Assembly: GCA_964507445.1 (NCBI GenBank)
Contig: CAZDQF010000020.1
Location: forward strand, 6,528 to 70,527
Direction of reading: 5' to 3'
DNA from: an uncultured Isosphaeraceae bacterium
Lineage (GTDB): Bacteria; Planctomycetota; GCA-002687715
Length of the DNA stretch: 64,000 nucleotides
Part shown: positions 7,615 to 40,894 of the stretch, piece after piece
How positions within the stretch are numbered: position 1 is the stretch's first letter
Layout of the letters: each line of letters begins with the position of its first letter
Notes under the pieces: model-generated
Seen by the model: only the letters and a program-made list of their open reading frames with translations
The model's database searches: none
What the model was told of the DNA's origin: nothing
Program-made: the position numbers and the translations under genes

Positions 7615-7668
7615 GGCACGATTCTAACCCGATCCTCGGCGCCGTCGACGCTTGGAAACGGCGGCAGG

Positions 7669-10089
7669 TCAGAGGTAGCGGAAGCGTTTGCGCAAGATCC
7701 ACTCGACGGTGAGCAGCGCCAGGAAGATGATCGGGAGCCACCTGAGCCAGGGGCTCTCCTCGTCGCGGAGATGCGTGAACTGGCGTTGCCGAGGAATCTC
7801 CACGGTCCCGGAGGCCACGTCGTCGAGCAACGACCTGGCCCCGTCGAGGGTCACATAGGAGCCGGAGGTCCGACCGGCGATGGTCTTGAGGGTGACCTCG
7901 TCCAGGATCGGTTCGCGGCGCTCCACGTCCGACGTGGTGACGAGGAATGACACCGGTGAGAGCTTCTCGTCCGAGAGCCCGTCCTCGGGCTGGATCCAGG
8001 CGTGATAGTCACCGGTCACGGAGCCGTGGAACGAGTGCTCGAAGACACCCGGCTGGACCTTGCGCAGGCGGATGGTCTCTCGACGACCCGAGGACTCCGG
8101 GTACTCCAGGATCACCTCCTGGTCGGCCTTGTCGGACGGCCGATAGGTGCGGTCCTTGATGTAGGCCGTGAGGGTGATCAGGTCGCCCTGCTGATACCTG
8201 GTCCGGTTGGAGACGAGCCTGAAGCGCTTGTCTCCCTGGAACAGCCGCGCCCTCGCCAGGTGGCGCACCACGTTGCCCCAGAACCGGTGGTGGGTGAACG
8301 GGCCCTCCCAGGCGAACCAGCGCCACGTCGCGTCCAGGGCGGTGAAGAACACCGGGCCCTCGCCGTAGGTGCCGGCCACCAGGATGGGGTACGGGCCGTG
8401 GAGGTTGCGGTCGCTCTCGTGGACCGCGAGCACCTGGCTGCCCGGCTTGGCCTTCTTCACCCGCGCGAACCAGTACAGCTCCTCGAGCCGATCCGGTTCG
8501 TTGCGGTCTTCCCAGATGCGCCGGTTGCGATCCGGGTCCTTCTCGTCGTCTTCGATCTGGGTGATCGGGTGGTTCACCCCCATGGGGGTGAGCTTCACTC
8601 TGAAGCCCAGGTCGTCACTGCCTCCCGCTTCCTCGCTCGGGTCGATGAGCACGGGGAGGATGTCAGCCAGGGGTGTGTCCTTGAACGCCCGCGGACTGAA
8701 CCGGTCTCCGGCGACCATGGCGAAGCCGCCGCCCTCCGCGACGAACTCCCGGATCAGAGCCATGTTCTTACGCGCCTTCTCCGGGTCCGCGGCGGAGAAC
8801 AGGTCGCTCATGGGGTCCACGTCACCGAAGATGATGACGTCGTACCAGAACAGCTCCTCCTTGCTCGCGGGGAACTGGGTGAGCGGCTGCAGGTTGCCGG
8901 CGCCGAGGGTCGACTCCTGGGGGAACCCGTGATCCGCCTCCAGCAGCAGGCACTGGCAGATGAAGGCGTCGTTGGCGCGGACCAGGAAGTCCTTCAGGGA
9001 GCGGTACTCCCACCTGGGGAACGACTCCACGTAGAGCACCTTGATCTTCTGGTCCTTGACCAGGACCTCGATGACCCGGGAGTTGTTGTCTTCGGTGTGC
9101 TCCGTGGGGATCGGCTGCACCCGCACGGTCCAGCGCTTGCGGCCCTCTGAGAGCGGGCGGTACAGCATCCTGAACGGCTGGTCTTCCTCGCTGGCGCTCA
9201 AGGTCACGCGCTGGCGATGGATGACGTTGTCGTTCTCCAGCAGCTGCAGGGTCACCTTCTCACCGGGGAACCCTCGCTGCCGCACCTTCAGGTCGATGCT
9301 GACCGTGTCTTCGACGAGCACCACGCTGGAGTGGAGCACGGAGGTGAGCTCGATGTCCTTGGTCGCCTTCGGGTCGCCGACCCCGACGCAGTGCACCGGG
9401 ATCTTGCGGCGGGCCGCGATCTCCACCACCTCCGCCGGAGGCGGCCCGGCGGTGTTCTTGCCGTCCGTGATGATGACCACGCCGCCGACGGAGGAGCTCT
9501 TGACCTCCGGCTCGTCGAGGATGCGTTCCAGGGTGCTCCCGAGGGTCGTGACCCGGTCTCGGGGCTCCAGGTCGGCGATGCCGGAGATGCCCTGCAGGCG
9601 CTCGCCGAAGGAGTAGAGGCGGACCCGGTTCTCCTCCCCGAGCTTCTCGAGGAAGGGCACCTCGCCTTCACCGAGCACCTTCTTGACCAGGCCGAGCCGG
9701 GTCAGGCTGTCCAGCGGGGTGCCGGCGGGGAGCTGGGCGGCGCCTCGGAGGCGGTCCGCCAGCCCGGGGTTGGTCTGGTAGTCGTCGTTGTGACCCATGG
9801 AGGCGCTGGCGTCGACCAGCACGATGGTGAGCGTCGGCTTGCGCTCCACCACGGTGGTCTGCATGGCCGGGTCCATGAGCAGGAGCGCCACGAAGATGAG
9901 GACCGCGATGCGGAGCAGCGTCAGCCCGTGGCGGACCAGCGCCGGGACGCCTTCGCGGCCCATCCGATAGAACACGGCGGCGAACCCGATGACGGCGGGG
10001 ACGATGACGAGGAAGATGACCCAAGTCGGGGGAGCGCTGCGGAACACCAGCCCTTCCGACACCACCTCCGATTCCAGCAACCAGGTCAT
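7669..10089 (-). CDS. membrane-anchored von Willebrand factor A (vWA) domain protein of the Bat/aerotolerance-type cluster
   Basis: This is track ORF 7669..10179. I place the start at MTWLLESEV at 10089, where it forms an ATGA overlap with the upstream stop. It has N-terminal TM helices and a vWA MIDAS-like motif, IVLVDASASMGHND. A C-terminal TM helix is also present. Confidence 0.75.
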   Translation of the reverse strand: MTWLLESEVVSEGLVFRSAPPTWVIFLVIVPAVIGFAAVFYRMGREGVPALVRHGLTLLRIAVLIFVALLLMDPAMQTTVVERKPTLTIVLVDASASMGHNDDYQTNPGLADRLRGAAQLPAGTPLDSLTRLGLVKKVLGEGEVPFLEKLGEENRVRLYSFGERLQGISGIADLEPRDRVTTLGSTLERILDEPEVKSSSVGGVVIITDGKNTAGPPPAEVVEIAARRKIPVHCVGVGDPKATKDIELTSVLHSSVVLVEDTVSIDLKVRQRGFPGEKVTLQLLENDNVIHRQRVTLSASEEDQPFRMLYRPLSEGRKRWTVRVQPIPTEHTEDNNSRVIEVLVKDQKIKVLYVESFPRWEYRSLKDFLVRANDAFICQCLLLEADHGFPQESTLGAGNLQPLTQFPASKEELFWYDVIIFGDVDPMSDLFSAADPEKARKNMALIREFVAEGGGFAMVAGDRFSPRAFKDTPLADILPVLIDPSEEAGGSDDLGFRVKLTPMGVNHPITQIEDDEKDPDRNRRIWEDRNEPDRLEELYWFARVKKAKPGSQVLAVHESDRNLHGPYPILVAGTYGEGPVFFTALDATWRWFAWEGPFTHHRFWGNVVRHLARARLFQGDKRFRLVSNRTRYQQGDLITLTAYIKDRTYRPSDKADQEVILEYPESSGRRETIRLRKVQPGVFEHSFHGSVTGDYHAWIQPEDGLSDEKLSPVSFLVTTSDVERREPILDEVTLKTIAGRTSGSYVTLDGARSLLDDVASGTVEIPRQRQFTHLRDEESPWLRWLPIIFLALLTVEWILRKRFRYL

Positions 10090-12353
10090 GCTTCCCTCCT
10101 TCGAGAACGCATGCCGAAGATCTGAGACAGGGCGGTCTCGATGGCCAGCACGGCGGCGCCGAACAACAGGAACCACCACCAGCTTCGGCTGGACCGGTCA
10201 GAGGCGGTGGCCTCCTCCACACCTTCGATGCCGTCCAGGAACCGCACGCCCTCGCCGGGGAAGCTGGCGACGATGTAGTCCTCGTCCACGCGGGACAGGT
10301 CCGACTCCTCGGCGTCCACGTTGACCGCGATGTGGATGGGGTTGGGGTCCTTGAGCTCTGCCTCACCCGTGCGTTGGAGGTCCAGCCGGTAGGTGCCGGC
10401 CTTGTCGAGGTTGCCCGTCTTGATCTCGTAGCCCCGCTCGTCTTCGACGGCCAGGGGCTTGACCACGCTCAGCTGTTCCCCGTCTCTCGAGATGACGACC
10501 TCCTGGACGAAGGAGCGGAGCAGGCGCTCGTAGGATTGCCCCACGAGCAGGTTCTCGTGACGCTCCTCCTTGCGGGTGAGGTAGTAGGACAACTCGCGGG
10601 CGAGCAGCAGGTACGTCGGCAGCGACTGCATCCCGTTCCAGTTCTCGTCGCCGCCGGCGGTGGCGAACAGGATGCAGCGTCCCTTGCCCAGCACCTTCTC
10701 CAGGATGAGCGGCTCCGGCGTGGGCAGCGCGGCCTTCGGTCGGTCAAGGTAGGCGAGCACCGACACCGCCGGGTCGTCCGGGACCTCGACGCGGTAGTAG
10801 CGGTAGACCGGCGTGGCCACCGTCAACCAGACGGAGATGGCCGGGTCGGCGAAGTAGCTGAGCGCCGGGTGTTCCAGGTTGGGACGGGTGATCTGGAACG
10901 GGAGGTCCATGAACATGTCCTCGCCCGCCGCCGCCCGCAGCTTGGCAGGCAGGACGCCCTCGCCGTTGCGGTAGAGCCGCTCGTTGGCGGTGGTGGCCTG
11001 GGTCTTGTCGCCGACGAACACCAGCAGGCCCCCACCTGCTTCGACGAAGCTCTGGATGTCTGCCGCCCGTCGCGGAGAGATCAGGGCCACGTCCATCAGC
11101 ACCAGCAGGTCCACCTCCTTCAGGTCGGCGCTGTCGAAGCCCACCTCCTGGACCACCTCGAGCTCGAAGTCGCTCCCGGAATCCCGGTCACCACCGGGGC
11201 TCATGGCGGCGCTGAAGAAGAACGACTCGGACTCGCCCGGCTCCGGGCTGGGGTCGCCGTCCACGACGAGGGTCTTGATCTTGCGGCGCACCTCGAGGGC
11301 GAGGCCCCTGCGGTTGTCCTTCGCCAGGCTGTCGGACCGGAACCGGGCCTCCACGTAGTGGCTGCCGGCGGACCGGAACGGCTGACGGAACTCGACGGAG
11401 TAGAGGCCTCCCGGCGGGATGGCCTCCACGTCCCGGAGGTCCACGGGCTCCGACGCACCGTCCACGAAGAGGTGCACCGCGCCGCCCTGGGGGCGGCTGC
11501 CGAAGTTCTGCAAGGTGACCGTGATCGCCGCCGGAGTGCCCGTCACCACGGCCTTGCTGCGCTTGGACACGGAGATGATGGCCACGTTGTCCGTGGTGGT
11601 GTCCGCCGGGCCCACGATGTTCAGCGTCGCCTTCCGCGCGCGCACCTCCTGGACCAGGGAAGCCAGAAGCTGCTGCGGCGGCGCCGCGTCGCCCTCCTGG
11701 TCCTCCTGCGCCACGTCCGAGGGCGGAGCGAACCCCACCTTCTGAAGGTCGGAGAAGACGAACACCTCGGCCCCCTCCTCCAGGTCGTCGAGGGCGGCCA
11801 CGGTCGAGCGCAGGGCGCCGATGAGATCGGTCGCGCCGTCCCCCGCGTCCATCCCGTCCACGACCGTGAGGACGCGGTCCAGATCGGACACCTGCTTGAG
11901 GACGAGGCTCGCAGGCTTTCCGGCGGTCACCAGGGTCACGGAGTCACCCCGCTCCTGTTGCAGCCCCTCGATGAGCTCGCGGACCTGCCGTTTGGCCCGG
12001 CTCATGGGAGTGCCGCCGTCGGACTCGGCCAGGGACATGCTGAAGCTGTCGTCCACCACCACCACCACCTCGCGGGGGCCGCCGCCCAGACCGCCGATGA
12101 TGGCGCCAGGGTTCAGGCGCGGGGCGGCGAGGGCCAGCACGAACAGCAGGATGGCCAGGATGCGCAGCAGCAGCAACAACAGGTGCTCGAGGCGGATCCG
12201 CCGCTGCGTCTTCTTGAACGCCCGCAGCAGAAACTCCATGGCGGCCCAGGGGACCTTCTTGTAGCGCTGCCGTGCGAACAGGTGGATGAGGATGGGGATG
12301 GCCGCGGCGCCGCCCCACAACAGCATGCTCGGGATTCCAAAGAGGCTCCCCAT
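10086..12353 (-). CDS. BatA-N-terminal-domain / vWA-like membrane protein
   Basis: The N-terminus is MLLWGGAAAIPILIHLFARQRYKKVPWAAMEFL (aerotolerance regulator BatA N-terminal signature). It also carries VVVVVDDSFSMS. It sits directly after DUF58 and MoxR. Confidence 0.8.
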   Translation of the reverse strand: MGSLFGIPSMLLWGGAAAIPILIHLFARQRYKKVPWAAMEFLLRAFKKTQRRIRLEHLLLLLLRILAILLFVLALAAPRLNPGAIIGGLGGGPREVVVVVDDSFSMSLAESDGGTPMSRAKRQVRELIEGLQQERGDSVTLVTAGKPASLVLKQVSDLDRVLTVVDGMDAGDGATDLIGALRSTVAALDDLEEGAEVFVFSDLQKVGFAPPSDVAQEDQEGDAAPPQQLLASLVQEVRARKATLNIVGPADTTTDNVAIISVSKRSKAVVTGTPAAITVTLQNFGSRPQGGAVHLFVDGASEPVDLRDVEAIPPGGLYSVEFRQPFRSAGSHYVEARFRSDSLAKDNRRGLALEVRRKIKTLVVDGDPSPEPGESESFFFSAAMSPGGDRDSGSDFELEVVQEVGFDSADLKEVDLLVLMDVALISPRRAADIQSFVEAGGGLLVFVGDKTQATTANERLYRNGEGVLPAKLRAAAGEDMFMDLPFQITRPNLEHPALSYFADPAISVWLTVATPVYRYYRVEVPDDPAVSVLAYLDRPKAALPTPEPLILEKVLGKGRCILFATAGGDENWNGMQSLPTYLLLARELSYYLTRKEERHENLLVGQSYERLLRSFVQEVVISRDGEQLSVVKPLAVEDERGYEIKTGNLDKAGTYRLDLQRTGEAELKDPNPIHIAVNVDAEESDLSRVDEDYIVASFPGEGVRFLDGIEGVEEATASDRSSRSWWWFLLFGAAVLAIETALSQIFGMRSRRREA

Positions 12354-12356
12354 GAG

Positions 12357-13255
12357 CTACCGGGCTCCCGTCCGCTGGGCCAGATAGGTGCTGAGGGCGA
12401 CGTCCAGGGAGCGCGAGGTGTCGAGCACCACGTAGTCCATGCGCCCGCCGATGCAGGCTGACTTGATGCGCGTCTGGAACTCGGTCAGCTCCTTCTGGTA
12501 GGCCTCCCTCAGCGCCCTCGGGTCCGCCAGCACGCGGGCGTCCACCTCGAGGCCCTCGAAGCGGGTCATGCGTTCGAACGGGAACTCCAGCTCGTCCTTG
12601 TCCAGGACGTGGAACACGATGACGTCATGGCCGCGATGGGCCATCCGGTGCAGACCGCGCAGGATGCCGTCTTCGTTCTCGTCGAACAGGTCGCTGAGCA
12701 CGATCACGAGGCTCTTGGTGCGCAGCCGTTCGGCGATCTCGTTGAAGATGGTCCCCAGGTCCGTCTCTCCGTCCGGCTCCTGCCCGGAGAGCTCGGACAG
12801 GCAGTTTCGGAAGTGCGCCTGGCTGCTGGACGGGGGAAGGAACGTGCGCACGCCTTCGCCGAAGGTCACCAGGGCGCCCGCGTCCCGCTGCTTCTGCACC
12901 AGATACAGCAGCGCCGCCGCCACGAACTTGGAGTAGTCGAGCTTGGTGACCTCGTCGGACCCGTAGGCCATGGACTTGGAGGTGTCCACCACCACGTAGG
13001 CCTTCAGGTTGGTCTCTTCCTCGAACTCCTTGATGTAGTAGCGGTCGCTCTTGGCGTAGACCTTCCAGTCCAGGTAGCGGATGTCGTCGCCGGGGACGTA
13101 CTCCCGGTGCTCCGCGAACTCCACGGACGATCCCTTGTAGGGGGACTCGTGCAGCCCGGACATGAACCCCTCGACGATCAGGCGCGCCTTGACCTCGAGG
13201 TTCCCGACCTTGTTCAGGACCTTGGGGTCGAGGTACTTGCTGTAGTCCTCAGCCA

Positions 13256-13256
<1 letters not shown>
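12357..13256 (-). CDS. DUF58 family protein (MoxR-associated, vWA-like)
   Basis: Motifs seen: GLHESPYKGSSVEFAEHREYVPGDDIRYLDWKVYAKSDRYYIKEFEEE (canonical DUF58 core). Its start shares one nucleotide with the MoxR stop (TGATG). Confidence 0.9.
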
Positions 13257-14284
<1,028 letters not shown>

Positions 14285-34053: not shown

Positions 34054-34126
<73 letters not shown>

Positions 34127-34136
34127 CTCCTACACA

Positions 34137-34173
34137 GGGGACATCACCATGCGGTGGTGTCCCCTTCTCTGTT
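34137..34173 (+). terminator. rho-independent-type terminator hairpin after the tRNA (possibly bidirectional)
   Basis: GGGGACATCACC-atgc-GGTGGTGTCCCC forms a 12-bp stem with one G:T pair. It is followed by TTCTCTGTT. Confidence 0.6.
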
Positions 34174-34404
34174 CCCACCTGGCGCGCGCCTCACCCACGT
34201 CCCATCCGCCGGGTGCTGCCGTCGAGGCTCTGCATAGAACGGACGTCCCGGGAGGATCGGGGTAGGAGCCCCTACGGCTCCCGGTCGTCCTTGCTGTTCG
34301 GCCGAACACTGTGGCGTTCGGCTCGGGACACGGGTCTGGGCATCACGGGTGCTGCGTCGGCGTCGTCACCATGTTCGACGCCGGCGATCGGACGGTTCGA
34401 TGCC

Positions 34405-34535
34405 TTGGCGCGCAGGGCGCAGGCCGAGGTTGTTGTCGGCGTTGTCGGGGTCGTTCCCGTTGCGGTTCGCAGAGCGTGCGTTGCGGGCGTCGTTGTTGAA
34501 GCTGCCGCCGCGGTTGACGCGTTTGCGGGCGCCTT
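34405..34535 (-). repeat. DGR template repeat (TR), about 129-131 nt, starting 32 nt downstream of the RT stop
   Basis: I hand-aligned it to 36647-36777 (offset 2242). Read in the VR frame it encodes ...GARKRVNRGGSFNNDARNARSANRNGNDPDNADNNLGLRPAR with 10 AAC codons. All differences from the VR fall on TR adenines (T on the plus strand). Confidence 0.9.
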
Positions 34536-34567
34536 GGACCCATCTCCCTGAATGTGCCTGGTTCAGG

Positions 34568-35551
34568 TCACGGAGGGTGAAACCAGCTACGTCGCAGGGC
34601 TCTGGTTGATCCATGGCTGAGGTGTTCTGTCACGGACCGGATCGCCGCCGCCAGCTGTTCGTCGCTGATCAGGCCGGCGTCGTTCTGGCGAAGGCGCTGC
34701 GCGACGCGTTTGCGCGTGCGCCGCAGGTTCTCCGGGCGAAGGCGGCGCGTACCGCCGTACAGCCGCCAACCAAGAAACGGCAGTCCGCAGCGAGCGGGGG
34801 CGAGGATGGTGGCCCGTTCCTTCAGCGCCAGCCCGAGCTCATCGCCCAGGTACTGCTCCACCTCCCCACGGGCGTAGCGCAGCCGATCCCTGTCGTCATG
34901 GAACAGCACCATGTCGTCCATGTAGCGGACATAGCCCGGGACCCGCAGGGTCTGCTTCACTCGATGATCCAGCCGGGAGAGCACCATGTTGGCGAACCAC
35001 TGGCTGGTGAGGCTGCCGATGGGCAGGCCCACGCCGCCGTCACCGAGGGTCGCCATCACCAGATCGAGCACGCGACGGTCTTTGATCACACGAGCGATCG
35101 TGTCGGCGACGACGGAGTGCCGCAGAGACCCGAAGAAATGGCGAACGTCCATCTTCAAGAACCACTCGTGGGCTCGTAAAGCGCGTTGCGCATGGTCGAG
35201 CGCGGCGTGGGTACCCTTGCCACGGCGACAGGCGAAGGACTCGTGGATCATGCGCCGGTCCAGGTGTGGTTCCAGGATATCGATCAGGGCGTGATGAACG
35301 ACCCGGTCGCGGAACGGCGCAGCGACGATGAGCCGTTCCTTGGGGTCCGAGATCCGGAAGCAGTTCGGTCGGCCAGGACGCCATGCGCCCGACAGGAGCT
35401 CTCGCTGCAACGCGAGACACTCGAATTCTCGGCGGTCCATGAACCGAGCGACCACGGCGGCGTGACGCTTGCCCTGGGCGGCCCGCTGCGCCGCCCGCAG
35501 CAGGTTGTCGAACGCGATCACGTCGCGCCACAACCCTCCGACCCGTCTCAT
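34568..35551 (-). CDS. DGR-type reverse transcriptase
   Basis: I place the start at MRRVGGLWRDVIAFDNLLRAAQRAAQGKR at 35551, overlapping the avd stop (ATGA). Motifs seen: RISDPKERLIVAAPFRDRVVHHAL, LPIGSLTSQWFANMVL (the DGR-RT hallmark [IL]GxxxSQ) and YVRYMDDMVLF (YMDD catalytic box). Confidence 0.93.
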   Translation of the reverse strand: MRRVGGLWRDVIAFDNLLRAAQRAAQGKRHAAVVARFMDRREFECLALQRELLSGAWRPGRPNCFRISDPKERLIVAAPFRDRVVHHALIDILEPHLDRRMIHESFACRRGKGTHAALDHAQRALRAHEWFLKMDVRHFFGSLRHSVVADTIARVIKDRRVLDLVMATLGDGGVGLPIGSLTSQWFANMVLSRLDHRVKQTLRVPGYVRYMDDMVLFHDDRDRLRYARGEVEQYLGDELGLALKERATILAPARCGLPFLGWRLYGGTRRLRPENLRRTRKRVAQRLRQNDAGLISDEQLAAAIRSVTEHLSHGSTRALRRSWFHPP

Positions 35552-35964
35552 GAGACCTGCTCCACGGCGGGTCCGCCGGCGTCTCGCCGGGCATCGATCG
35601 TCATGCGCCAGCCATGGATCATGCGACCGGCCTCGTCGAGTCCACGCATGGCTGCCTCGAATCCGCGTGTCGGCATCACCTGGGCGTCCCGAGCGATGCG
35701 ACACAGGAAACGCATGCGCTCCATGCACAGGTTCACCTGGCGTAGGCTGCGTTCGCGTTCCCGTGGTTCATAACGAGACACCACCAGTCCCTCGACGACG
35801 TCGAGCGCGAGGTTCTCCACCCGTTGCGCCAGGGTGAAGCGGGCCGACTTGGGCCACTTTCGGGTGTGGTCGAGGAGCCATCCGGTGAAGCGTTCCCAAT
35901 GCTGCGCCACCAGCAAGTCGGTGGTCGCCTCACGGGCGCCCGGACGCCCGAGAGGAGCGCTCAC
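35548..35964 (-). CDS. avd: Avd-like DGR accessory variability determinant (four-helix-bundle, 23S rRNA intervening-sequence protein family)
   Basis: The GTG at 35964 overlaps the HRDC gene stop (GTGA). The 138-aa product reads ...HWERFTGWLLDHTRKWPKSARFTLAQRVENLALDVVEGLVVSRY....LRQVNLCMERMRFLCRIARDAQVMPTRGFEAAMRGLDEAGRMIHGW. It is basic and helical and sits immediately upstream of the RT, as in characterised DGRs. Confidence 0.8.
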   Translation of the reverse strand: MSAPLGRPGAREATTDLLVAQHWERFTGWLLDHTRKWPKSARFTLAQRVENLALDVVEGLVVSRYEPRERERSLRQVNLCMERMRFLCRIARDAQVMPTRGFEAAMRGLDEAGRMIHGWRMTIDARRDAGGPAVEQVS

Positions 35965-36521
35965 GACGAGCTCTCCTTCTCGGAGTCCCTGGTCCCTGGA
36001 TCCGCAGCCGCCAGCCTCTCGAGGATCGGCCCACCATGGCGCTCCAGCTTCGCCTTGCCGATCCCCTCGACATGCCCGAGCGCCGTCAGGCTGTCCGGCG
36101 CCGCCTTGATGATGGCGACCAGCTCTTTGTTGGTGAGCACGACGTAGGGAGGCACTCCCTCGTCGAGGGCCTTGCTCTGCCGCCACTCTCGCAGGGTGTC
36201 GAACTGCTGTCGTTGGCGCTCGTCGAGCCCGTCGCGGGGATCGGATCGGTCGCGGCCCTTGCCAGGCCTTCGTCCGCTGTTCTCCGTCGTTCGGTGAGTG
36301 TCGGTCGGCCCGGGACATTCCAAGGCCCGCCACGTCAGCACGCACAACAAATGGGCCACGCCGTTCACCAGGAAGAAGTGATCCTTGAAGGTCAACAACT
36401 CCTTGTCGGTGACGAATCGGTCCAGGGGTGTCGCATCGAAGCCGCCGAGGGTGGAAGAGTAGCGGAGGGTCATTAGTTTCAAACGCATGGCGGGAACCCC
36501 TGCCCCACCCCCGCCCTCCAC
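35961..36521 (-). CDS. HRDC-domain DGR accessory protein
   Basis: The C-terminal sequence LREWRQSKALDEGVPPYVVLTNKELVAIIKAAPDSLTALGHVEGIGKAKLERHGGPILE matches the HRDC (helicase and RNase D C-terminal) pattern. The N-terminal ~60 aa are unassigned. The start may be the internal ATG at 36488 or the one at 36473. Confidence 0.75.
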   Translation of the reverse strand: MEGGGGAGVPAMRLKLMTLRYSSTLGGFDATPLDRFVTDKELLTFKDHFFLVNGVAHLLCVLTWRALECPGPTDTHRTTENSGRRPGKGRDRSDPRDGLDERQRQQFDTLREWRQSKALDEGVPPYVVLTNKELVAIIKAAPDSLTALGHVEGIGKAKLERHGGPILERLAAADPGTRDSEKESSS

Positions 36522-36634
36522 GCAAGCGGGTTTCTGATTTTTTTCCCATCCACCCTACGACATTTGGATCGCCACGTCCCGGCTACGCACGGGACGGGCG
36601 CTCCCAGGGGGGAAGTGGTGAAGTGGTGAAGGAA

Positions 36635-39600
36635 CTAAGGCGTGATCCGGCGCGCAGGGCGCAGGCCGAGGAAGAAGCCGGCGAAGCCGGGGGCGCCCCC
36701 GAAGCGGACCGCAGAGCGAGCGAGGCGGGCGTCGTAGCGGAAGCAGCCGCCGCGGCGGACGCGAAAGCGGGCGCCTAACCAGTGGGTGCCCAGGCCGTCA
36801 CCGGCGCGGGGCCGCCGTTCGGCGTAGAGGCCGTAGCCGTCCAGGCACCACTCCCAGACGTTGCCGTGGACGTCGTGGAGCCCGAACGGGTTTGGCTTCA
36901 GGGCTCCCACCGGGGCCAGGTTGATGAAGCCGTCGTTGAAGTCTCGTTGCAAGGTGCCGCCGCTGTAGCGCCGGGCGCGGGCGTCGTCGCCGATGTTGGC
37001 GTAACCGGTGAGGGACTTCAGGTCATCCCCGGTGGAGAACCGGGTGGTGGTGCCCCCTCGGCACGCCCGCGCCCACTGGGATTCCGTGGGCAGCTCCAGG
37101 CCCCAGCGGCGGCAGGCCTCCCGACTCTGGGGCCAGGAGACGTTGGTGACCGGCATGCGCGGGGTCATGCGCTCGCCCTGGTGGGTTTCCCCCGCCCGGT
37201 AGTGGGACGGGCTGTCGGCACTCAATCGCTTCCACTGCCCCTGGGTCACCTCGTGCTTGGCGATCAGGTAGGCGTCCAGGGTGACCTCGTGCACCGGGCC
37301 TTCGTTGTCGTAGACCTGATCGTCCACGTTGGGGGAGCCCGCGGGGTGGTCCTTGTCCGGAGATATCGCCCCCATACGGAACGTCCCCGCCGGGATCAGC
37401 ACCATGACCATGCCTTCGGCCCCCGAGTCGGGGTGCAGCTTCACCTTGCCTGGCCCCAGGGGTTCGCCCTCCCACTGCGGCCGTTGGCCGCTGGCCACGT
37501 GCCAGAACTCCCACAGACCGGAATCCCGGTCACGGCCCAGGGGCACCAGCGCCGGGATCGGTTTGAACTCGAGGTCGTGGTAGGGGGGCTCGGGACGAGA
37601 CAGGTCCGCCAGGCAGCGGCGCCAGGCCTCGGCATCGTCTTCCGCCAGCCGCCGCTCCAGGGCCACGGCGTCGGTGAGACGCTGCTCCATGCCGGAAACC
37701 GTCACCGTCTTCGCCGTCGGCTCCGCCGTCAGCGCGACCAACCCCGACACCAGGTCCCGCAGCTTGTCGTGACGCAGCTGGTCACCCTCGTCGGTGAAGG
37801 CCCACGACGACTTCACCGCGGTCGCGGCTTCCAGTCGCGTTCGCTCCGCGATCAACCCTGCGACCACCTTCATAGCGTCTTCTATCGATACTTCTGCGGC
37901 TTCGATCCGCTGTCGCAGGCGCTGCAGGGCCCGTGCTTCGCCAGACGTCAGGTCGTCGTTGTCTTCCTTCGTCTCAAGAGGCGCGAGCTCCGCCGACAGC
38001 TCCCTCTTCGCGCCCTCGGCGTCTCTCACCGTCGCTTCCGCCTTCGCCACTTCCGCGTGTATCACTCCCAATCGTGCGTGTGCGGCTGCCATACGCGCAC
38101 GATCCTCGTCGGCGTCGTACGTCCCTCGAACCCGCAGGGCCTTCAGTGCGGCTTCGTGCTCCGGCAGCCTTGCGGTCAATGCGCGTGTCTTGTCCAACCA
38201 AGCACGGTAGGCAGGGATGTTCTTCGGCACCACAGGCCACAGCGGACCGTCGGCTTCCTCCCGGCGGTCGTCGAGCCGACGACCGTCTGCTAGGCGTTCC
38301 CACTCGGTGAGGTGCGCGGCGGCCTTCGCCGCATTGGCTTCCGCTCGGAGCGCGAACGCCGTTGCTGCGCTCGCCCCCACGATCAGTATTAGCGCTGCGG
38401 CCCCGGTCATCGTTGCCAGGGCCGGGTTGCGCTGACCCCACCGAGCCAGTCTTGTCAGGGCGGACGCGGCACGCGCCTTGATGGGCTCGTGTTCGCGGAC
38501 ACGGCGTAACTCTTCGGCCAGGTCCAGCGCCGTCTGGTAGCGGCGGTCCCGGTCCTTCTCGAGGGCGGTGGCCATGACCACGGCCAGGTCCTTGGAGATG
38601 GCCGGGTTGAGCTTGCGTGGGTCCGAGGGTTCCCGGGTGGCGATGGTCTGAAACAGGCCTTGTCGGGTGGGGGAGTCGAAGGGGCGGCGGTAGGTCAAGA
38701 ACTCGTAGAGCACCACGCCCAACGACCAGACGTCGGTGCGGCGATCGAGGGTGACGGCGTTGTGGAGGAGCTGTTCCGGGGACATGTAGGCCGGGGTGCC
38801 GAAGAGGTCCCCCGCCCGGGTGAGGGTGACGCCCTCTCCGAGGGTGTCGTGGGCGAGGCCGAAGTCCAGGATCACCGGGGTGTCGTCGTCGCGGATCATG
38901 ACGTTGCCCGGCTTGATGTCGCGGTGGACGACGCCGGCTTCGTGGGCGGCGTGGAGCGCGCGGGCGATCTGCTCGACGATGCGCAGAAGGTGATCTAGTT
39001 TGGCTCCGTCGGGACCTGAGAGGTCGGTCGCCGTTCTCGAGTCATCGTCGGCCTCGTCGTCCGTCACGTCGAGGTCATCGTCGAACGAGGCGTGGAAGCT
39101 CTCCGTCGCGCCCCCGGTCGCATCCCGCATGGCGTTGATGGCGTCGGACAGGGCCTTGCCCTCCACGAGCTGCATGGCGATGAACGGCACCCCGTCCTCG
39201 ATGCCGCTCTCGTAGACCGAGCAGATCCCCGGGTGCTGCAGACGCGCCGCCACCTCCGCCTCGCGCTGGAAGCGGTTGATGGCGGCGCCCAACCCGGGGC
39301 CACGGATGTCCAAGATCTTCAAAGCCACGGAGCGGTTGAGGCGCTCGTCCCGGGCCTTGTAAACCACCCCCTGACCGCCCTGGCCGAGCATGGCCTCGAC
39401 CCGGTACGACCCGAACGTGGCCCCCACCTTCAGCAGGCCACCGCCCCCTTCGCCACCCACCGTGTCCCCTCGCACGACCTCCGCCACCTTCCGGGCGATG
39501 GTCTCCTCATACCCCGGGGACAGGGCCTGGTACGACTCGACCGACTGCAACCCTTCTCCAGCACGGTCCTCTTCCATCCGCGCGAGCAGGGCCGCCAGCA

Positions 39601-39682
39601 CGGCGGCGGGGAGCGGGGTCTCATCCGTCACGGGCGATTCTCCATGGCGGTCAGGAGCTGCCTCAAGGGCGATCCGCCCCAT
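36635..39682 (-). CDS. DGR target: transmembrane Ser/Thr protein kinase with extracytoplasmic coiled-coil region and C-terminal FGE-sulfatase-type C-type-lectin-fold domain carrying the VR
   Basis: Kinase motifs: GQGGQGVVYKA, VALKIL, HRDIKPGNVMI, DFGLAHD, GTPAYMSPEQ. There is one TM helix (LATMTGAAALILIVGASAATAFAL) and a long helical segment. The FGE-type domain reads GTFRMGA...HEVTLDAYLIAKHEVTQGQW...VTNVSW..A..CRW...LPTESQWARACRGG...HDVHGNVWEWC...RVRRGG. Confidence 0.92.
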   Translation of the reverse strand: MGRIALEAAPDRHGESPVTDETPLPAAVLAALLARMEEDRAGEGLQSVESYQALSPGYEETIARKVAEVVRGDTVGGEGGGGLLKVGATFGSYRVEAMLGQGGQGVVYKARDERLNRSVALKILDIRGPGLGAAINRFQREAEVAARLQHPGICSVYESGIEDGVPFIAMQLVEGKALSDAINAMRDATGGATESFHASFDDDLDVTDDEADDDSRTATDLSGPDGAKLDHLLRIVEQIARALHAAHEAGVVHRDIKPGNVMIRDDDTPVILDFGLAHDTLGEGVTLTRAGDLFGTPAYMSPEQLLHNAVTLDRRTDVWSLGVVLYEFLTYRRPFDSPTRQGLFQTIATREPSDPRKLNPAISKDLAVVMATALEKDRDRRYQTALDLAEELRRVREHEPIKARAASALTRLARWGQRNPALATMTGAAALILIVGASAATAFALRAEANAAKAAAHLTEWERLADGRRLDDRREEADGPLWPVVPKNIPAYRAWLDKTRALTARLPEHEAALKALRVRGTYDADEDRARMAAAHARLGVIHAEVAKAEATVRDAEGAKRELSAELAPLETKEDNDDLTSGEARALQRLRQRIEAAEVSIEDAMKVVAGLIAERTRLEAATAVKSSWAFTDEGDQLRHDKLRDLVSGLVALTAEPTAKTVTVSGMEQRLTDAVALERRLAEDDAEAWRRCLADLSRPEPPYHDLEFKPIPALVPLGRDRDSGLWEFWHVASGQRPQWEGEPLGPGKVKLHPDSGAEGMVMVLIPAGTFRMGAISPDKDHPAGSPNVDDQVYDNEGPVHEVTLDAYLIAKHEVTQGQWKRLSADSPSHYRAGETHQGERMTPRMPVTNVSWPQSREACRRWGLELPTESQWARACRGGTTTRFSTGDDLKSLTGYANIGDDARARRYSGGTLQRDFNDGFINLAPVGALKPNPFGLHDVHGNVWEWCLDGYGLYAERRPRAGDGLGTHWLGARFRVRRGGCFRYDARLARSAVRFGGAPGFAGFFLGLRPARRITP
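36647..36777 (-). repeat. DGR variable repeat (VR) at the 3' end of the target gene
   Basis: It encodes ...LGARFRVRRGGCFRYDARLARSAVRFGGAPGFAGFFLGLRPARR. It matches the TR except at 28 (30 if extended by 2 nt) positions, all of them TR adenines. It ends about 10 nt before the stop codon at 36635-36637. Confidence 0.9.
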
Positions 39683-39781: not shown

Positions 39782-40894
39782 ATGACGATCTCGTTGCTGG
39801 CGTGGGTGATCTGGACGCTGCCCTTCGGGGCGGATGAGGGGCTATACGGGGCGTCGACGGCGGTGCCGCCCGTGACCTCGGTGGTGGTGGACGGTGAGCG
39901 ATTCGGCGCTGAGGCAGATGAGGCCGGCCCGATCGGGGGAGGGGCGGGATACGGAGCGGTGGTCACCACGGGGGCGCGGGTGGTCAAGGACCTGGACGGC
40001 CTGGTGCAGGCCCTGTCCGAGGCGAAAGCGGGGGACGTGGTGTTCGTACCGGGGAATGTGGTCATCGACTGCACGGCCCGTTGCCTGATCGAAGAGCTGG
40101 TGTTGGAGGTGCCCGCAGGGGTCACGTTGGCGAGTGACCGGGGGAAGGGAGGCTCGCCGGGAGCGCTCATCTTCTCGGATCATCTGGCGACCCGTCCGTT
40201 GATCCGCACCCAGGGTCCTGGAGTGCGCATCTCGGGGCTTCGCTTGCGAGGGCCGGACCCGGAGCGTCGCCTGGATCATCATCGGCGCGCGTATCGCGGC
40301 ACCCGCAAGCGGGACCCGGACTACTACTACAGCCTGCCCACGTCTGATGGGATCGAGGCGCGTCACGGTAGTCTCGAGGTGGACAACTGCGAGCTGGCGG
40401 GCTGGAGCCACGCCGCGGTGTTTCTGCGGCGCGGAGAGGGGCACCACATCCACCACTGCTTCATGCACCACAATCAACGCCAGGGTCTCGGGTACGGCGT
40501 CTGTCTGGATGTGGCGGTGGCGTTGATCGAGCGCAACCTGTTCGACTGGAACCGTCACTCCATCGCCGCAACGGGCCGTCCGGGGAGCGGCTACGAGGCC
40601 CGCCACAATGTCGAGCGAGGGGAGTCCCTGAGCCACTGCTTCGACATGCACGGGGGGCGTGACCGCCGCGACGGGACCAACGTGGCGGGTACGTGGATGA
40701 ACGTCCATCACAACGCGTTCTTCTGTCCCCGGCGTGCGCTGGTGGTTCGGGGCGAGCCCGAAAAGGAGGCTCGCGTCCATGGGAACTGGTTCTTTCATGA
40801 CACGCCGGGAGCGGCGGTGCGGGGAGAGAAACGGACGGTCCTGGGGGCCAACGCCTACGGCCTGAAGGCGCCGAAGATCCGGCGGGGTCCTTAG
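39782..40894 (+). CDS. right-handed parallel beta-helix repeat protein (pectate-lyase-fold), secreted
   Basis: I trimmed the start to MTISLLAWVIWTLPFG at 39782. The rest of track ORF 39092.. overlaps the DGR target on the opposite strand. It has His/Gly-rich beta-helix rungs (GWSHAAVFL, HHCFMHHNQRQGLGYGV, NRHSIAATG, SHCFDMHGG). Confidence 0.7.
   Translation: MTISLLAWVIWTLPFGADEGLYGASTAVPPVTSVVVDGERFGAEADEAGPIGGGAGYGAVVTTGARVVKDLDGLVQALSEAKAGDVVFVPGNVVIDCTARCLIEELVLEVPAGVTLASDRGKGGSPGALIFSDHLATRPLIRTQGPGVRISGLRLRGPDPERRLDHHRRAYRGTRKRDPDYYYSLPTSDGIEARHGSLEVDNCELAGWSHAAVFLRRGEGHHIHHCFMHHNQRQGLGYGVCLDVAVALIERNLFDWNRHSIAATGRPGSGYEARHNVERGESLSHCFDMHGGRDRRDGTNVAGTWMNVHHNAFFCPRRALVVRGEPEKEARVHGNWFFHDTPGAAVRGEKRTVLGANAYGLKAPKIRRGP

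What the first reader, a model, noticed from the sequence alone, without database searches (positions are those of the whole stretch)
34405..39682. Complete diversity-generating retroelement (DGR) beside the initiator tRNA gene
A minus-strand cassette contains every part of a DGR.
- A target ORF ends in a C-type-lectin-fold (FGE-type) domain.
- A 131-nt variable repeat lies at its 3' end (36647-36777).
- An HRDC-domain gene and an Avd-like gene follow.
- The reverse transcriptase carries the DGR-specific LPIGSLTSQWFAN motif and a YMDD box.
- A template repeat (34405-34535) matches the VR except at adenines.

HRDC, avd and the RT gene are joined by 4-nt GTGA/ATGA overlaps, indicating a single translationally coupled unit. 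No phage, integrase or transposase genes flank it, so it looks like a chromosomal DGR serving a cellular gene.
Basis: partly seen in the sequence, partly recalled or inferred. Interest (0 to 1): 0.9.

Follow-up and report, generated by a model that had tools for sequence, protein, structure and literature searches.

The report
Chromosomal DGR diversifying a receptor kinase
This is a genuine, complete diversity-generating retroelement in the chromosome of an uncultured Planctomycetota-like bacterium; it is built to rewrite the outer ligand-binding tip of a membrane-spanning Ser/Thr kinase, and it is a well-formed new example of a known kind of system rather than a new kind.

Summary
TR (34405-34535, minus) and VR (36647-36777, minus) differ at 30 positions. 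All 30 are TR adenines (30 of 33 A; P=1.6e-26), and the 98 non-A positions of the 128-nt core are identical.

The VR closes a 1015-aa ORF: an N-terminal Hanks-type kinase, one transmembrane helix, a long helical region and a C-terminal FGE-sulfatase/C-type-lectin domain. HRDC, bAvd and RT genes follow, joined by GTGA and ATGA overlaps. The RT's best solved relative is the Bordetella phage DGR RT (E=7e-46; next, a group II intron RT, 3e-18).

I also found conserved nucleic-acid modules:
- a covarying stem-loop just 3' of TR, seen only in Avd-bearing relatives;
- a duplex bracketing TR;
- downstream of VR, a periodic CTT array plus a hairpin with a GCG(N)AGC loop.

The window has no phage, integrase or transposase gene. 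Every feature has precedent: kinase targets, HRDC with Avd, and RT-TR order. A cultured planctomycete, Engelhardtia mirabilis, has the same cassette (RT 55% identical).

The VR was identical in the three assembled contigs that carry it, and no variant target protein was on record, so ongoing diversification is not shown.

Verdict: a real, complete DGR; a new member of a known kind; moderate interest.

The parts
36635..39682 (-). Target (variable protein) gene, 1015 aa from the first ATG (public gene calls use 39682 or the GTG at 39631, giving 998 aa). Layout: Ser/Thr kinase aa 93-383 (nt 38534-39406), one transmembrane helix about aa 421-447 (nt 38342-38422), a helical region, and an FGE-sulfatase/CLec domain aa 760-1011 (nt 36650-37405).
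   Evidence: Pfam Pkinase 1e-40 and FGE-sulfatase 3e-41. Kinase motifs GQGGQG, VALK, HRDIKPGN, DFG and SPE, and a single hydrophobic segment with Kyte-Doolittle peak 2.08.
36647..36777 (-). Variable repeat (VR) at the 3' end of the target ORF. It ends in a 23-nt A-free G+C-rich stretch identical to TR (CCTCGGCCTGCGCCCTGCGCGCC), 11 nt before the stop codon.
   Evidence: The VR is in frame with no stop codon; 18 codons are variable.
36613..36639 (-). Array of four CTT triplets spaced exactly 8 nt apart, starting at the stop codon. It is specific to VR flanks in the HRDC+Avd subclade.
   Evidence: It follows every VR in 11 loci and is absent after every TR. The window's empirical P is 0.0003.
36566..36604 (-). 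Hairpin downstream of VR: stem CGTCCCG/CGGGACG (36575-36596), loop TGCGTAGC, plus outer CGCC/GGCG pairs. It is the likely target-recognition hairpin.
   Evidence: DNA fold. Stems differ and the GCG(N1-2)AGC loop is conserved in 8 of 11 loci, against an 11% background (P=3e-6). The analogue is in Guo 2011 (PMC3240598).
35961..36488 (-). HRDC accessory gene (175 aa from the ATG; an alternative GTG lies at 36521). It has an N-terminal beta-alpha-beta-beta domain (aa 1-55), a disordered linker and a C-terminal HRDC domain.
   Evidence: Pfam HRDC 1e-16. AF2 model with pLDDT 88.5. Foldseek matches RecQ HRDC 1wud/2rhf at TM 0.86-0.92; the N-terminal domain has no confident match.
35548..35964 (-). 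avd accessory gene (138 aa). Its GTG start overlaps the HRDC stop (GTGA).
   Evidence: Pfam bAvd 51.6 bits against a cut-off of 40. NCBIfam DivGenRetAVD 76.2 bits against a cut-off of 80. Sequence read.
34568..35551 (-). DGR reverse transcriptase (327 aa). Its ATG overlaps the avd stop (ATGA). It carries the IGSLTSQ and YMDD motifs.
   Evidence: RVT_1. Best PDB hit is 8ub7, the Bordetella DGR bRT, at 6.7e-46; the next is a group II intron RT at 3e-18.
34537..34548 (-). 5' strand (GGGAGATGGGTC) of a duplex that brackets TR; it pairs with 34325-34336.
   Evidence: Duplex predicted at the same relative place in all 9 loci. RNAalifold gives 11 pairs, 6 with compensatory changes.
34405..34535 (-). 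Template repeat (TR), 32 nt after the RT stop codon. It has 33 adenines and 10 AAC codons when read in the VR frame.
34338..34400 (-). Stem-loop immediately 3' of TR (stem CGGCGTCG/CGACGCCG, loop containing CATGG). It is the putative Avd-binding stem-loop of the DGR RNA.
   Evidence: Covariation: 96.6% of cells paired against 31-48% in slid controls, 8 of 11 pairs with double changes, 0 of 500 shuffles as high. Model R1 hits 16 of 24 Avd+ loci and 0 of 107 Avd- loci.
34291..34336 (-). 3' strand of the TR-bracketing duplex (GACCCGTGTCCC, 34325-34336), then the stem-loop GCCGAAC...GTTCGGC (34301-34322) and the A-rich tract CGAACAGCAA (34291-34300). The layout resembles the 'cPRT stop' element.
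   Evidence: compared with Handa 2024 bioRxiv 10.1101/2023.10.23.563531.
34241..34290 (-). Distal conserved RNA domain: a long imperfect stem enclosing the nearly invariant G(G)TAGG (34271-34275). It may be an RT-binding stem-loop.
   Evidence: Conserved columns in alignment A1. No formal covariation test succeeded for this part.
34136..34165 (+). Terminator-like 13-bp hairpin followed by TTCTCTGTT, just after the tRNA gene. It also marks the far end of the DGR 3' untranslated RNA.
34054..34127 (+). Initiator tRNA-Met (CAT) gene, convergent with the DGR. It is a neighbour, not a part of the element.
   Evidence: ARAGORN, Rfam tRNA at 63 bits, and initiator features read from the sequence.

Best explanation
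A complete chromosomal diversity-generating retroelement of the HRDC-plus-Avd type.

Inferred mechanism, by analogy with the Bordetella phage BPP-1 element:
1. The cassette target-HRDC-avd-RT-TR is transcribed as one unit.
2. The RNA segment made of the end of the RT gene, TR and about 200 nt of structured 3' sequence binds the RT-Avd complex. A stem-loop just 3' of TR is the likely Avd site, and a duplex that brackets TR sets the limits of cDNA synthesis.
3. The RT copies TR into cDNA, misincorporating opposite the 33 template adenines.
4. The cDNA replaces the VR. It is guided by the identical G+C-rich 3' end and by VR-specific flanking DNA: a CTT array and a GC-rich hairpin with a GCG(N)AGC loop. 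The HRDC protein probably helps at this nucleic-acid recognition step.

The result is recoding of up to 18 codons (about 10^17 protein variants) in the C-type-lectin-fold domain of a single-pass transmembrane Ser/Thr kinase. Because the kinase has no signal peptide and there is one membrane helix between it and the lectin domain, the variable domain should face the periplasm or exterior. The protein would then act as a receptor kinase whose ligand specificity can be rewritten.

Shown here: the parts, their integrity, the adenine-specific TR/VR pattern, and the conservation and covariation of the RNA/DNA modules.

Inferred: transcription as one unit, which protein binds which module, the topology, the ligand, and present-day activity.
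For: TR/VR pair:
- All 30 mismatches fall on TR adenines, and the 98 non-A positions of the 128-nt core are identical. This argues for homing that is recent on an evolutionary scale.
- Adenines are concentrated in codon positions 1 and 2, with 10 AAC codons.

RT:
- It is closest to the Bordetella DGR bRT (8ub7, 160 bits), against 69 bits for the best group II intron RT and 21-23 bits for retron RTs.
- The DGR-type [LIVM]GxxxSQ and YxDD motifs occur in it and in all 80 related RTs.

Other proteins:
- The Avd, HRDC and FGE/CLec domains are confirmed.
- The reading frames overlap by 4 nt.

Related cassettes:
- 63 of 80 related genome loci have an HRDC hit, and the 12 closest also have Avd between HRDC and RT. 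TR lies just after the RT wherever a TR/VR pair was detected.
- Engelhardtia mirabilis CP036287.1 has target(Pkinase-NACHT-FGE)-HRDC-bAvd-RT(55% identical)-TR, plus a second kinase-NACHT-FGE target. Both of its VRs are adenine-specific.

RNA and DNA modules:
- The RNA stem-loop 3' of TR has strong covariation and is found only with Avd.
- The TR-bracketing duplex occurs in all 9 loci examined. This matches elements described for BPP-1 and 207 other DGRs (Handa 2024).
- The hairpin and CTT array are VR-specific.

Target and setting:
- The kinase catalytic motifs are intact and there is one transmembrane segment.
- The flanks are cellular and composition is uniform.
Against: No present-day diversification is visible:
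- The VR is identical to the window's in the three assembled contigs that hold it, which come from three samples.
- The full-length target is recorded only as this one sequence: a 2-member cluster (998- and 1015-aa calls) counted on 8 and 15 contigs.
- No 70-99% identical CLec fragment exists among 5.8 billion protein clusters.

Other points:
- Avd falls just below NCBIfam's equivalog cut-off (76.2 against 80).
- The link between the TR-adjacent stem-loop and Avd is confounded by phylogeny, because the Avd+ loci are also the closest relatives of the model's training set.
- No sigma-70-like promoter was found. That scan does not cover other promoter types.
- The topology rests on a hydropathy plot only.
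Confidence: 0.93

Rival explanations
1. A structurally intact but quiescent or 'domesticated' DGR. The element wrote the present VR in the past, but it is now silent or so tightly regulated that the population carries one fixed VR allele.
For: The VR is identical in the three assembled contigs, from three samples, and no variant target sequence is on record. 91% of TR adenines are changed, with a Phe-rich outcome (five AAC>TTC). That is more than the 75% expected from random replacement (P=0.02) and is compatible with a selected, retained allele.
Against: All ORFs, catalytic motifs and RNA/DNA modules are intact, and TR and VR are identical at all 98 non-A core positions. Consensus assemblies from what looks like one study cannot reveal minority variants or variation between habitats.
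Confidence: 0.4
2. The target is an intracellular 'antigen sensor' of a conflict or programmed-cell-death system, as proposed for clade 5 DGRs, rather than an outward-facing receptor kinase.
For: Targets of related RTs carry NACHT/STAND NTPases, caspase and DUF4062 modules. The E. mirabilis targets are kinase-NACHT-CLec. Dore 2024 and Kaur 2020 propose this role.
Against: The window's target has no NTPase, effector or adaptor domain. It has a clear single hydrophobic helix between the kinase and the CLec domain. The adjacent genes are a HEAT-repeat protein, a tRNA, an unannotated 369-aa protein and an HlyD-type protein, with no effector genes. The MoxR-vWA genes lie more than 20 kb away.
Confidence: 0.2
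3. The repeat pair is an ordinary duplication or partial gene copy next to an unrelated RT (group II intron, retron or defence RT), and the adenine pattern is coincidental.
For: The RT gives sub-threshold hits to the group II, retron and DRT models in NCBIfam and PADLOC, which lack a DGR RT model.
Against: P=1.6e-26 for all 30 mismatches falling on A. The best PDB hit is the DGR bRT, by 28 orders of magnitude. Avd is adjacent. There is no intron RNA or retron ncRNA match in Rfam. The same architecture with adenine-specific repeats recurs in dozens of relatives.
Confidence: 0.01

Closest known systems
Bordetella phage BPP-1 DGR (mtd-avd-TR-brt), the prototype
   Same: It shares an adenine-specific TR-to-VR transfer, a CLec-fold variable protein with the VR at its C-terminus, and the Avd accessory protein. 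The RT is the best solved homologue (8ub7, E=7e-46). Also shared are a G+C-rich identical 3' end of VR and TR, a GC-rich hairpin downstream of VR, a stem-loop just 3' of TR, and a duplex bracketing TR.
   Different: The window's element is chromosomal, not phage-borne. Its gene order is target-HRDC-avd-RT-TR, so TR lies after the RT rather than between avd and brt. It has an extra HRDC accessory gene. The target is a transmembrane kinase, not a tail-fibre receptor-binding protein. The VR-downstream hairpin lies about 50 nt away, with a GCG(N)AGC loop instead of a 4-nt GRNA loop 4-34 bp away. A CTT array fills the gap.
Engelhardtia mirabilis (Planctomycetota isolate, CP036287.1) DGR locus
   Same: The order target-HRDC-bAvd-RT-TR is identical. 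RT is 55%, HRDC 52% and Avd 48% identical. The target has an N-terminal Pkinase and a C-terminal FGE/CLec domain with an adenine-specific VR. The same conserved blocks lie 3' of TR, and CTT repeats follow both VRs.
   Different: E. mirabilis has two targets, each with a NACHT NTPase between the kinase and the CLec domain, and an ECF sigma factor gene directly upstream. The window has one target, with a transmembrane helix and a long helical region instead of NACHT.
HRDC-containing DGRs ('Architecture C' of Wu et al. 2018; Treponema denticola type)
   Same: An HRDC accessory gene sits inside the cassette. About half of the described cases also have avd.
   Different: Wu et al. had only 14 such DGRs in 372. 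Here HRDC is the rule in the RT's neighbourhood: 63 of 80 genome loci and 117 of 159 loci overall.
Ser/Thr-kinase-CLec variable proteins of cyanobacterial DGRs (Vallota-Eastman et al. 2020), target type b12 of Wu 2018, and Pkinase targets in Thiohalocapsa (Dore 2024)
   Same: A Hanks-type kinase lies N-terminal to a DGR-diversified CLec domain.
   Different: The cyanobacterial proteins are mostly predicted to be cytosolic. The window's protein has one transmembrane helix, which would put the variable domain outside the cytoplasm. The host phylum differs.

Membership tests
Diversity-generating retroelement (DGR) | TR/VR repeat pair whose differences are confined to adenines of the TR | tested here: met
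   30 of 30 mismatches fall on TR adenines, and 98 of 98 non-A core positions are identical; P=1.6e-26.
Diversity-generating retroelement (DGR) | Reverse transcriptase of the DGR lineage with the [LIV]GxxxSQ motif and YxDD | tested here: met
   IGSLTSQ and YMDD are present. The best PDB hit is the Bordetella bRT at 6.7e-46, against 3e-18 for a group II intron RT. No formal phylogeny with reference sets was made.
Diversity-generating retroelement (DGR) | VR at the 3' end of a target ORF encoding a C-type-lectin/FGE-type (or Ig-like) fold | tested here: met
   FGE-sulfatase at aa 760-1011, 3e-41. The VR spans about the last 47 codons and ends 11 nt before the stop codon.
Diversity-generating retroelement (DGR) | Accessory protein Avd (or another recognised accessory gene) adjacent to the RT | tested here: met
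   Pfam bAvd at 51.6 bits, above the cut-off of 40. NCBIfam DivGenRetAVD at 76.2 bits, just below its cut-off of 80. HRDC is also present.
Diversity-generating retroelement (DGR) | Target-site elements: an identical G+C-rich 3' end (IMH-like) and a hairpin downstream of VR | tested here: met
   A 23-nt A-free G+C-rich identical 3' end. A hairpin at 36566-36604 with stems that differ between loci and a conserved loop in 8 of 11 loci. It departs from the GRNA tetraloop and the 4-34 bp spacing of phage DGRs.
Diversity-generating retroelement (DGR) | Structured RNA around TR (Avd-binding stem-loop, duplex bracketing TR) as in BPP-1 | tested here: met
   Stem-loop covariation, model hits restricted to Avd+ loci, and the duplex. 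Which protein binds what was not tested.
Diversity-generating retroelement (DGR) | Ongoing mutagenic retrohoming (VR polymorphism at TR-adenine sites in populations) | tested here: inconclusive
   The VR is identical in the three assembled contigs that hold it, and no variant target protein or fragment is on record. Only consensus assemblies were available, not reads. The JGI contig collection lacks this organism.
HRDC-type DGR cassette (Architecture C, Wu 2018) | HRDC-domain gene inside the cassette, on the same strand as the RT | tested here: met
   Pfam HRDC 1e-16, a RecQ-HRDC fold at TM 0.86-0.92, and a 4-nt overlap with avd.
Clade 5 'antigen-sensor' DGR conflict systems (Dore 2024; Kaur 2020) | Target or neighbours carry STAND/NACHT or MoxR-vWA modules plus effector or adaptor domains | tested here: not met
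   The target has only kinase, TM and CLec. The immediate neighbours lack such domains. The MoxR/DUF58/vWA genes lie 20 kb or more away. Relatives do carry NACHT, nSTAND and caspase domains.
Clade 5 'antigen-sensor' DGR conflict systems (Dore 2024; Kaur 2020) | RT falls in clade 5 of Roux et al. 2021 | not tested
Phage- or mobile-element-borne DGR | Phage structural, integrase or transposase genes in the neighbourhood, or atypical composition | tested here: not met
   There are no such Pfam families in the 64-kb window, and GC is uniform at 0.64-0.72.

The most novel reading that the evidence does not exclude
The HRDC-plus-Avd subclade uses its own target-site code, a run of CTT triplets at 8-nt spacing followed by a GC-rich hairpin with a GCG(N)AGC loop. 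This code marks VRs and never TRs. It would be read by the so far function-less HRDC accessory protein, whose N-terminal domain has no structural relative. In this bacterium the system would programme the extracellular specificity of a transmembrane receptor kinase.
Probability: 0.2. Interest if true: 0.6.

Novelty: new member of a known kind. Interest (0 to 1): 0.35.

Why it matters
It adds a clean, complete example of a cellular DGR in the Planctomycetota lineage whose target looks like a single-pass receptor Ser/Thr kinase with a rewritable sensing domain. If it is active, it would couple hypermutation directly to transmembrane phospho-signalling.

The comparative work also gives testable handles on two open points of DGR biology: what the HRDC accessory protein does, and how VR is told apart from TR in elements where TR follows the RT. 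The handles are a VR-specific CTT array with a conserved-loop hairpin, and an Avd-linked stem-loop next to TR.

None of this changes the picture of what DGRs are.

Tried and rejected
- **VR variants in metagenome contigs by pattern.** I searched with the TR pattern in which every A was replaced by N. It gave 0 matches, not even the TR, so the collection does not hold this organism.
- **Close relatives of the RT in metagenome contigs.** The best was 46% identical, so this gave no population information.
- **Partial target fragments.** An exact look-up of fragments from contig ends found nothing in the collection.
- **Variant VRs by protein search.** A search with the CLec domain found nothing between 63% and 100% identity.
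- **Rfam.** The 12 kb around the locus matched only the tRNA.
- **NCBIfam and PADLOC for the RT.** These gave only sub-threshold group II, retron and DRT hits; neither listed a DGR-specific RT model among its hits, so they do not help to place the RT.
- **tRNA adjacency as an integration signal.** Three of 117 loci had a tRNA there, against about 1.5 expected. I rejected it as not significant; it is nominally enriched only in the post-hoc Avd+ subgroup.
- **RNAalifold on the whole 3' region of TR.** Only the first stem-loop was recovered, because the distal part aligns poorly. The distal GGTAGG domain therefore rests on sequence conservation alone.
- **Model R1 in E. mirabilis.** It did not find the stem-loop at the expected place, although the other conserved blocks are visible there. 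The Planctomycetota members have a longer variant of the hairpin.
- **Promoters.** A sigma-70 scan found none.
- **Fold search for the HRDC protein's N-terminal domain.** No confident match.

Full report
**1. The observation**

The repeat pair is real. The repeat finder reports a 128-nt ungapped direct repeat, 34407-34534 / 36649-36776, at 79% identity. Every one is an adenine in TR (A>T 17, A>G 9, A>C 4).

- 30 of the 33 TR adenines are changed. The probability that all 30 mismatches fall on A by chance is 1.6e-26.
- In the 128-nt core, the 98 non-A positions are identical.
- TR adenines lie at codon positions 1 or 2 in 29 of 33 cases, and ten TR codons are AAC.
- Eighteen codons are variable. 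That gives about 10^17 possible peptides and 10^20 DNA sequences.
- No further VR-like copy exists in the window.
- The first and the last two positions of the 131-nt repeat are themselves A mismatches, so the ends are uncertain by 1-3 nt.

**2. The genes**

Pfam confirms all four proteins.

- The 1015-aa target (36635-39682, minus) has a protein kinase domain (aa 93-383) and an FGE-sulfatase/C-type-lectin-fold domain (aa 760-1011).
- The next ORF has an HRDC domain.
- The next matches bAvd above Pfam's cut-off. It falls just under NCBIfam's DGR-Avd cut-off (76.2 against 80).
- The last is an RVT_1 reverse transcriptase carrying LPIGSLTSQWFAN and YMDD.

The overlaps are read directly from the sequence: GTGA at 35961-35964 (HRDC stop / avd start) and ATGA at 35548-35551 (avd stop / RT start).

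Against all PDB sequences, the RT's best match is the Bordetella phage DGR reverse transcriptase (8ub7, E=6.7e-46, 160 bits). A group II intron RT follows at 3e-18, and retron RTs at about 1e-3. All 80 related RTs fetched from genomes carry [LIVM]GxxxSQ and YxDD.

The target's kinase has the full set of catalytic motifs: GQGGQG, VALK, HRDIKPGN, DFG and SPE. A single uncharged hydrophobic segment (about aa 421-447) lies between the kinase and the rest of the protein.

**3. The setting**

The tRNA at 34054-34127(+) is a tRNA-Met(CAT). It has the initiator hallmarks: a C1xU72 mismatch, three G:C pairs at the base of the anticodon stem, and A11:U24. It is convergent with the DGR. A terminator-like hairpin (34136-34165) lies between them.

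I scanned the gene-like ORFs of the whole 64-kb window against Pfam.

- They encode shikimate-pathway enzymes, HEAT-repeat proteins, an HlyD-type protein, a sulfatase, enolase, PanC and phosphatidylserine decarboxylase.
- They also encode an ABC transporter, a hybrid histidine kinase, a MoxR-DUF58-BatA/vWA operon and others.
- There is no integrase, transposase or phage family, and G+C is even.

The nearest RT relatives are Planctomycetota MAGs (63% and 58% identity).

tRNA adjacency is not a feature of the family: 3 of 117 evaluable loci, against about 1.5 expected.

**4. Relatives and architecture**

A simple TR/VR finder run on the 80 genome loci found adenine-biased repeat pairs in most of them. 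The TR almost always starts a few tens of nucleotides after the RT stop codon.

- HRDC hits occur in 63 of the 80 loci, typically directly upstream of the RT. Over all loci the count is 117 of 159.
- Avd is detected in 13 of the 80 loci. They include the 12 closest relatives, where it lies between HRDC and RT.

The window therefore belongs to a coherent subclade with the order target-HRDC-avd-RT-TR. The subclade is spread over Planctomycetota, Desulfobacterota, Myxococcota, Elusimicrobia and others.

Targets of related RTs always end in the FGE/CLec domain, but their N-terminal modules vary: NACHT, nSTAND, caspase, PEGA and DUF4062. A kinase lies near the RT in only a few loci.

A cultured organism has the same cassette. 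Engelhardtia mirabilis (Planctomycetota, CP036287.1) encodes, in order, an ECF sigma factor, a Pkinase-NACHT-FGE target, HRDC, bAvd, an RT (55% identical) and a TR. A second Pkinase-NACHT-FGE target lies on the other strand. Both VRs are adenine-specific.

**5. RNA around the TR**

The roughly 200 nt after TR are non-coding yet conserved across these phyla.

- **Stem-loop next to TR.** The first element (window 34338-34400) has a 9-bp stem that covaries strongly. 96.6% of cells are paired, against 31-48% when the 3' partners are slid. Eight of 11 pairs show double changes, and 0 of 500 shuffles reach the observed score.
- **Distribution of the stem-loop.** A covariance model built from eight loci found the element in further loci that were not used to build it. 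It was always on the RT strand, about 140-240 nt after the RT. It occurred in 16 of 24 Avd-bearing loci and 0 of 107 loci without Avd (Fisher P=5e-15). Relatedness confounds this contrast.
- **Duplex bracketing TR.** The 12 nt just upstream of TR (GGGAGATGGGTC, 34537-34548) pair with a conserved block after the stem-loop (GACCCGTGTCCC, 34325-34336). The equivalent duplex is predicted in all nine loci examined, with compensatory differences such as GGGGGC/GCCCCC against GGAGGC/GCCTCC.
- **Further elements.** A stem-loop and an A-rich tract follow, then a distal domain with a nearly invariant GGTAGG.

[quoted passage not shown] The assignment of functions here is by analogy.

**6. DNA after the VR**

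Downstream of the VR there are two features that the TR flank lacks.

- **CTT array.** Four CTT triplets lie exactly 8 nt apart, beginning at the stop codon (36613-36639). Runs of CTT at 7-8 nt spacing follow every VR in the 11 loci of the subclade, including the second VR of E. mirabilis. They never follow a TR. Per-locus empirical P ranges from 0.0003 to 0.04.
- **Hairpin.** It lies at 36566-36604. The GC-rich stem differs in sequence between loci, while the loop keeps GCG(N1-2)AGC in 8 of 11 loci, against an 11% background (P=3e-6).

A GC-rich hairpin with a conserved GRNA loop 4-34 bp after VR is a known requirement for target recognition in BPP-1 and other phage DGRs (Guo 2011, PMC3240598). 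Here the hairpin lies further away, its loop differs, and the CTT array fills the gap.

I found no description of such an array in the papers I read. I treat it as an observation, not a claim of function. HRDC-only relatives carry other conserved motifs after their VRs.

**7. The HRDC protein**

With an alignment of 38 homologues, AlphaFold2 gives a confident model (mean pLDDT 88.5).

- Residues 1-55 form a small beta-alpha-beta-beta domain.
- Residues about 60-85 are disordered.
- The C-terminal part superposes on RecQ HRDC domains (1wud, 2rhf; TM 0.86-0.92, rmsd about 1 A).
- The N-terminal domain has no confident structural match.

Its role in DGRs is unknown. Nucleic-acid recognition is the obvious guess.

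**8. Is it active?**

For activity: all parts are intact, and TR and VR are identical at every non-A position.

Against visible current activity:
- The identical RT is encoded on 20 contigs from several samples. The three fetched contigs that include the VR, from three samples, have exactly the window's VR.
- The full-length target exists only as this one sequence in its 90% cluster.
- No CLec fragment between 63% and 100% identity exists in the protein collection.

These are consensus assemblies, apparently from one study, so they cannot exclude minority variants.

The VR differs from TR at 91% of adenines, more than the 75% expected for random replacement (P=0.02). It is rich in Phe codons, which fits a selected allele.

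**9. Comparison with what is known**

- Wu et al. 2018 list a kinase-domain target type (b12), 14 HRDC-containing DGRs of which about half also have avd, and an avd-RT-TR architecture.
- Vallota-Eastman et al. 2020 found Ser/Thr kinase-CLec proteins to be the commonest DGR targets in cyanobacteria, mostly cytosolic.
- Dore et al. 2024 describe Pkinase-bearing targets and propose that cellular 'clade 5' DGRs diversify antigen sensors.

The window's element differs from those mainly in the predicted topology of its target, a single-pass membrane protein with the variable domain outside. It also lacks any NTPase or effector module in or next to the target.

**10. Verdict**

It is a new member of a known kind. 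Interest is moderate (0.35).

The most novel reading still open is a subclade-specific target-site code read by the HRDC protein, programming a receptor kinase. It rests on sequence conservation only.

Noticed in passing
window 36613-36639 (-); also L001, L003-L006, L008, L009, L020, L028, and L166 (both VRs): Runs of CTT triplets at 7-8 nt spacing directly after the stop codon of every DGR target in the HRDC+Avd subclade, and never after the TR (window: four copies, spacing 8, 8, 8). I did not find this described in the DGR papers I read.
   Followed up: partly
L010-L080 (HRDC-only relatives), first 100 nt after each VR: A different set of conserved VR-downstream motifs, TCAGTTGG...(C)TGTGAGC and GAGGGACGA, often in a hairpin loop. 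This suggests clade-specific target-site signals.
   Followed up: no
window 34366-34614 (-); L081 8938-9186: An 82-aa ORF is called as a gene in public assemblies. It is simply the TR read in the VR frame (…GGSFNNDARNARSANRNGNDPDNADNNLGLRPA…), so it is an annotation artefact typical of DGRs.
   Followed up: yes
L166 (Engelhardtia mirabilis CP036287.1, 6089278-6107814): A cultured planctomycete has a closely related DGR with two Pkinase-NACHT-FGE targets on opposite strands flanking HRDC-bAvd-RT-TR, and an ECF sigma factor gene directly upstream. It is a possible experimental model.
   Followed up: partly
window 35961-36488 (-), protein residues 1-55: The N-terminal beta-alpha-beta-beta domain of the HRDC accessory protein is conserved across the family (M1, T7, F17, D18, L22, F39, P45 and L47 nearly invariant). 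It is confidently modelled but has no confident match in the PDB.
   Followed up: partly
L002 3623-3718 (tRNA-SeC, -) and L009 4535-4620 (tRNA-Tyr, +): Two other members of the HRDC+Avd subclade also have a tRNA gene within about 600 nt of the cassette's 3' end. This is nominally enriched in the subclade (3 of about 18) but not over all loci (3 of 117, against about 1.5 expected).
   Followed up: yes
window 6685-14284 (-): A MoxR-type AAA ATPase, a DUF58 protein, BatA/vWA proteins and a separate soluble Ser/Thr kinase form a cluster 20 kb or more from the DGR. It is reminiscent of MoxR-vWA systems sometimes linked to DGRs, but here it is not adjacent, and it looks like the common Bat-type operon.
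   Followed up: no
window 36647-36777 (-) against 34405-34535 (-): 91% of TR adenines are replaced in the VR (75% expected for random replacement; P=0.02), with a bias to A>T (17 of 30). Five AAC codons became TTC (Phe). This points to a selected, aromatic-rich binding surface or an RT misincorporation bias.
   Followed up: partly
window 39785-40894 (+): The gene divergent from the target encodes a 369-aa protein with no Pfam match.
   Followed up: no
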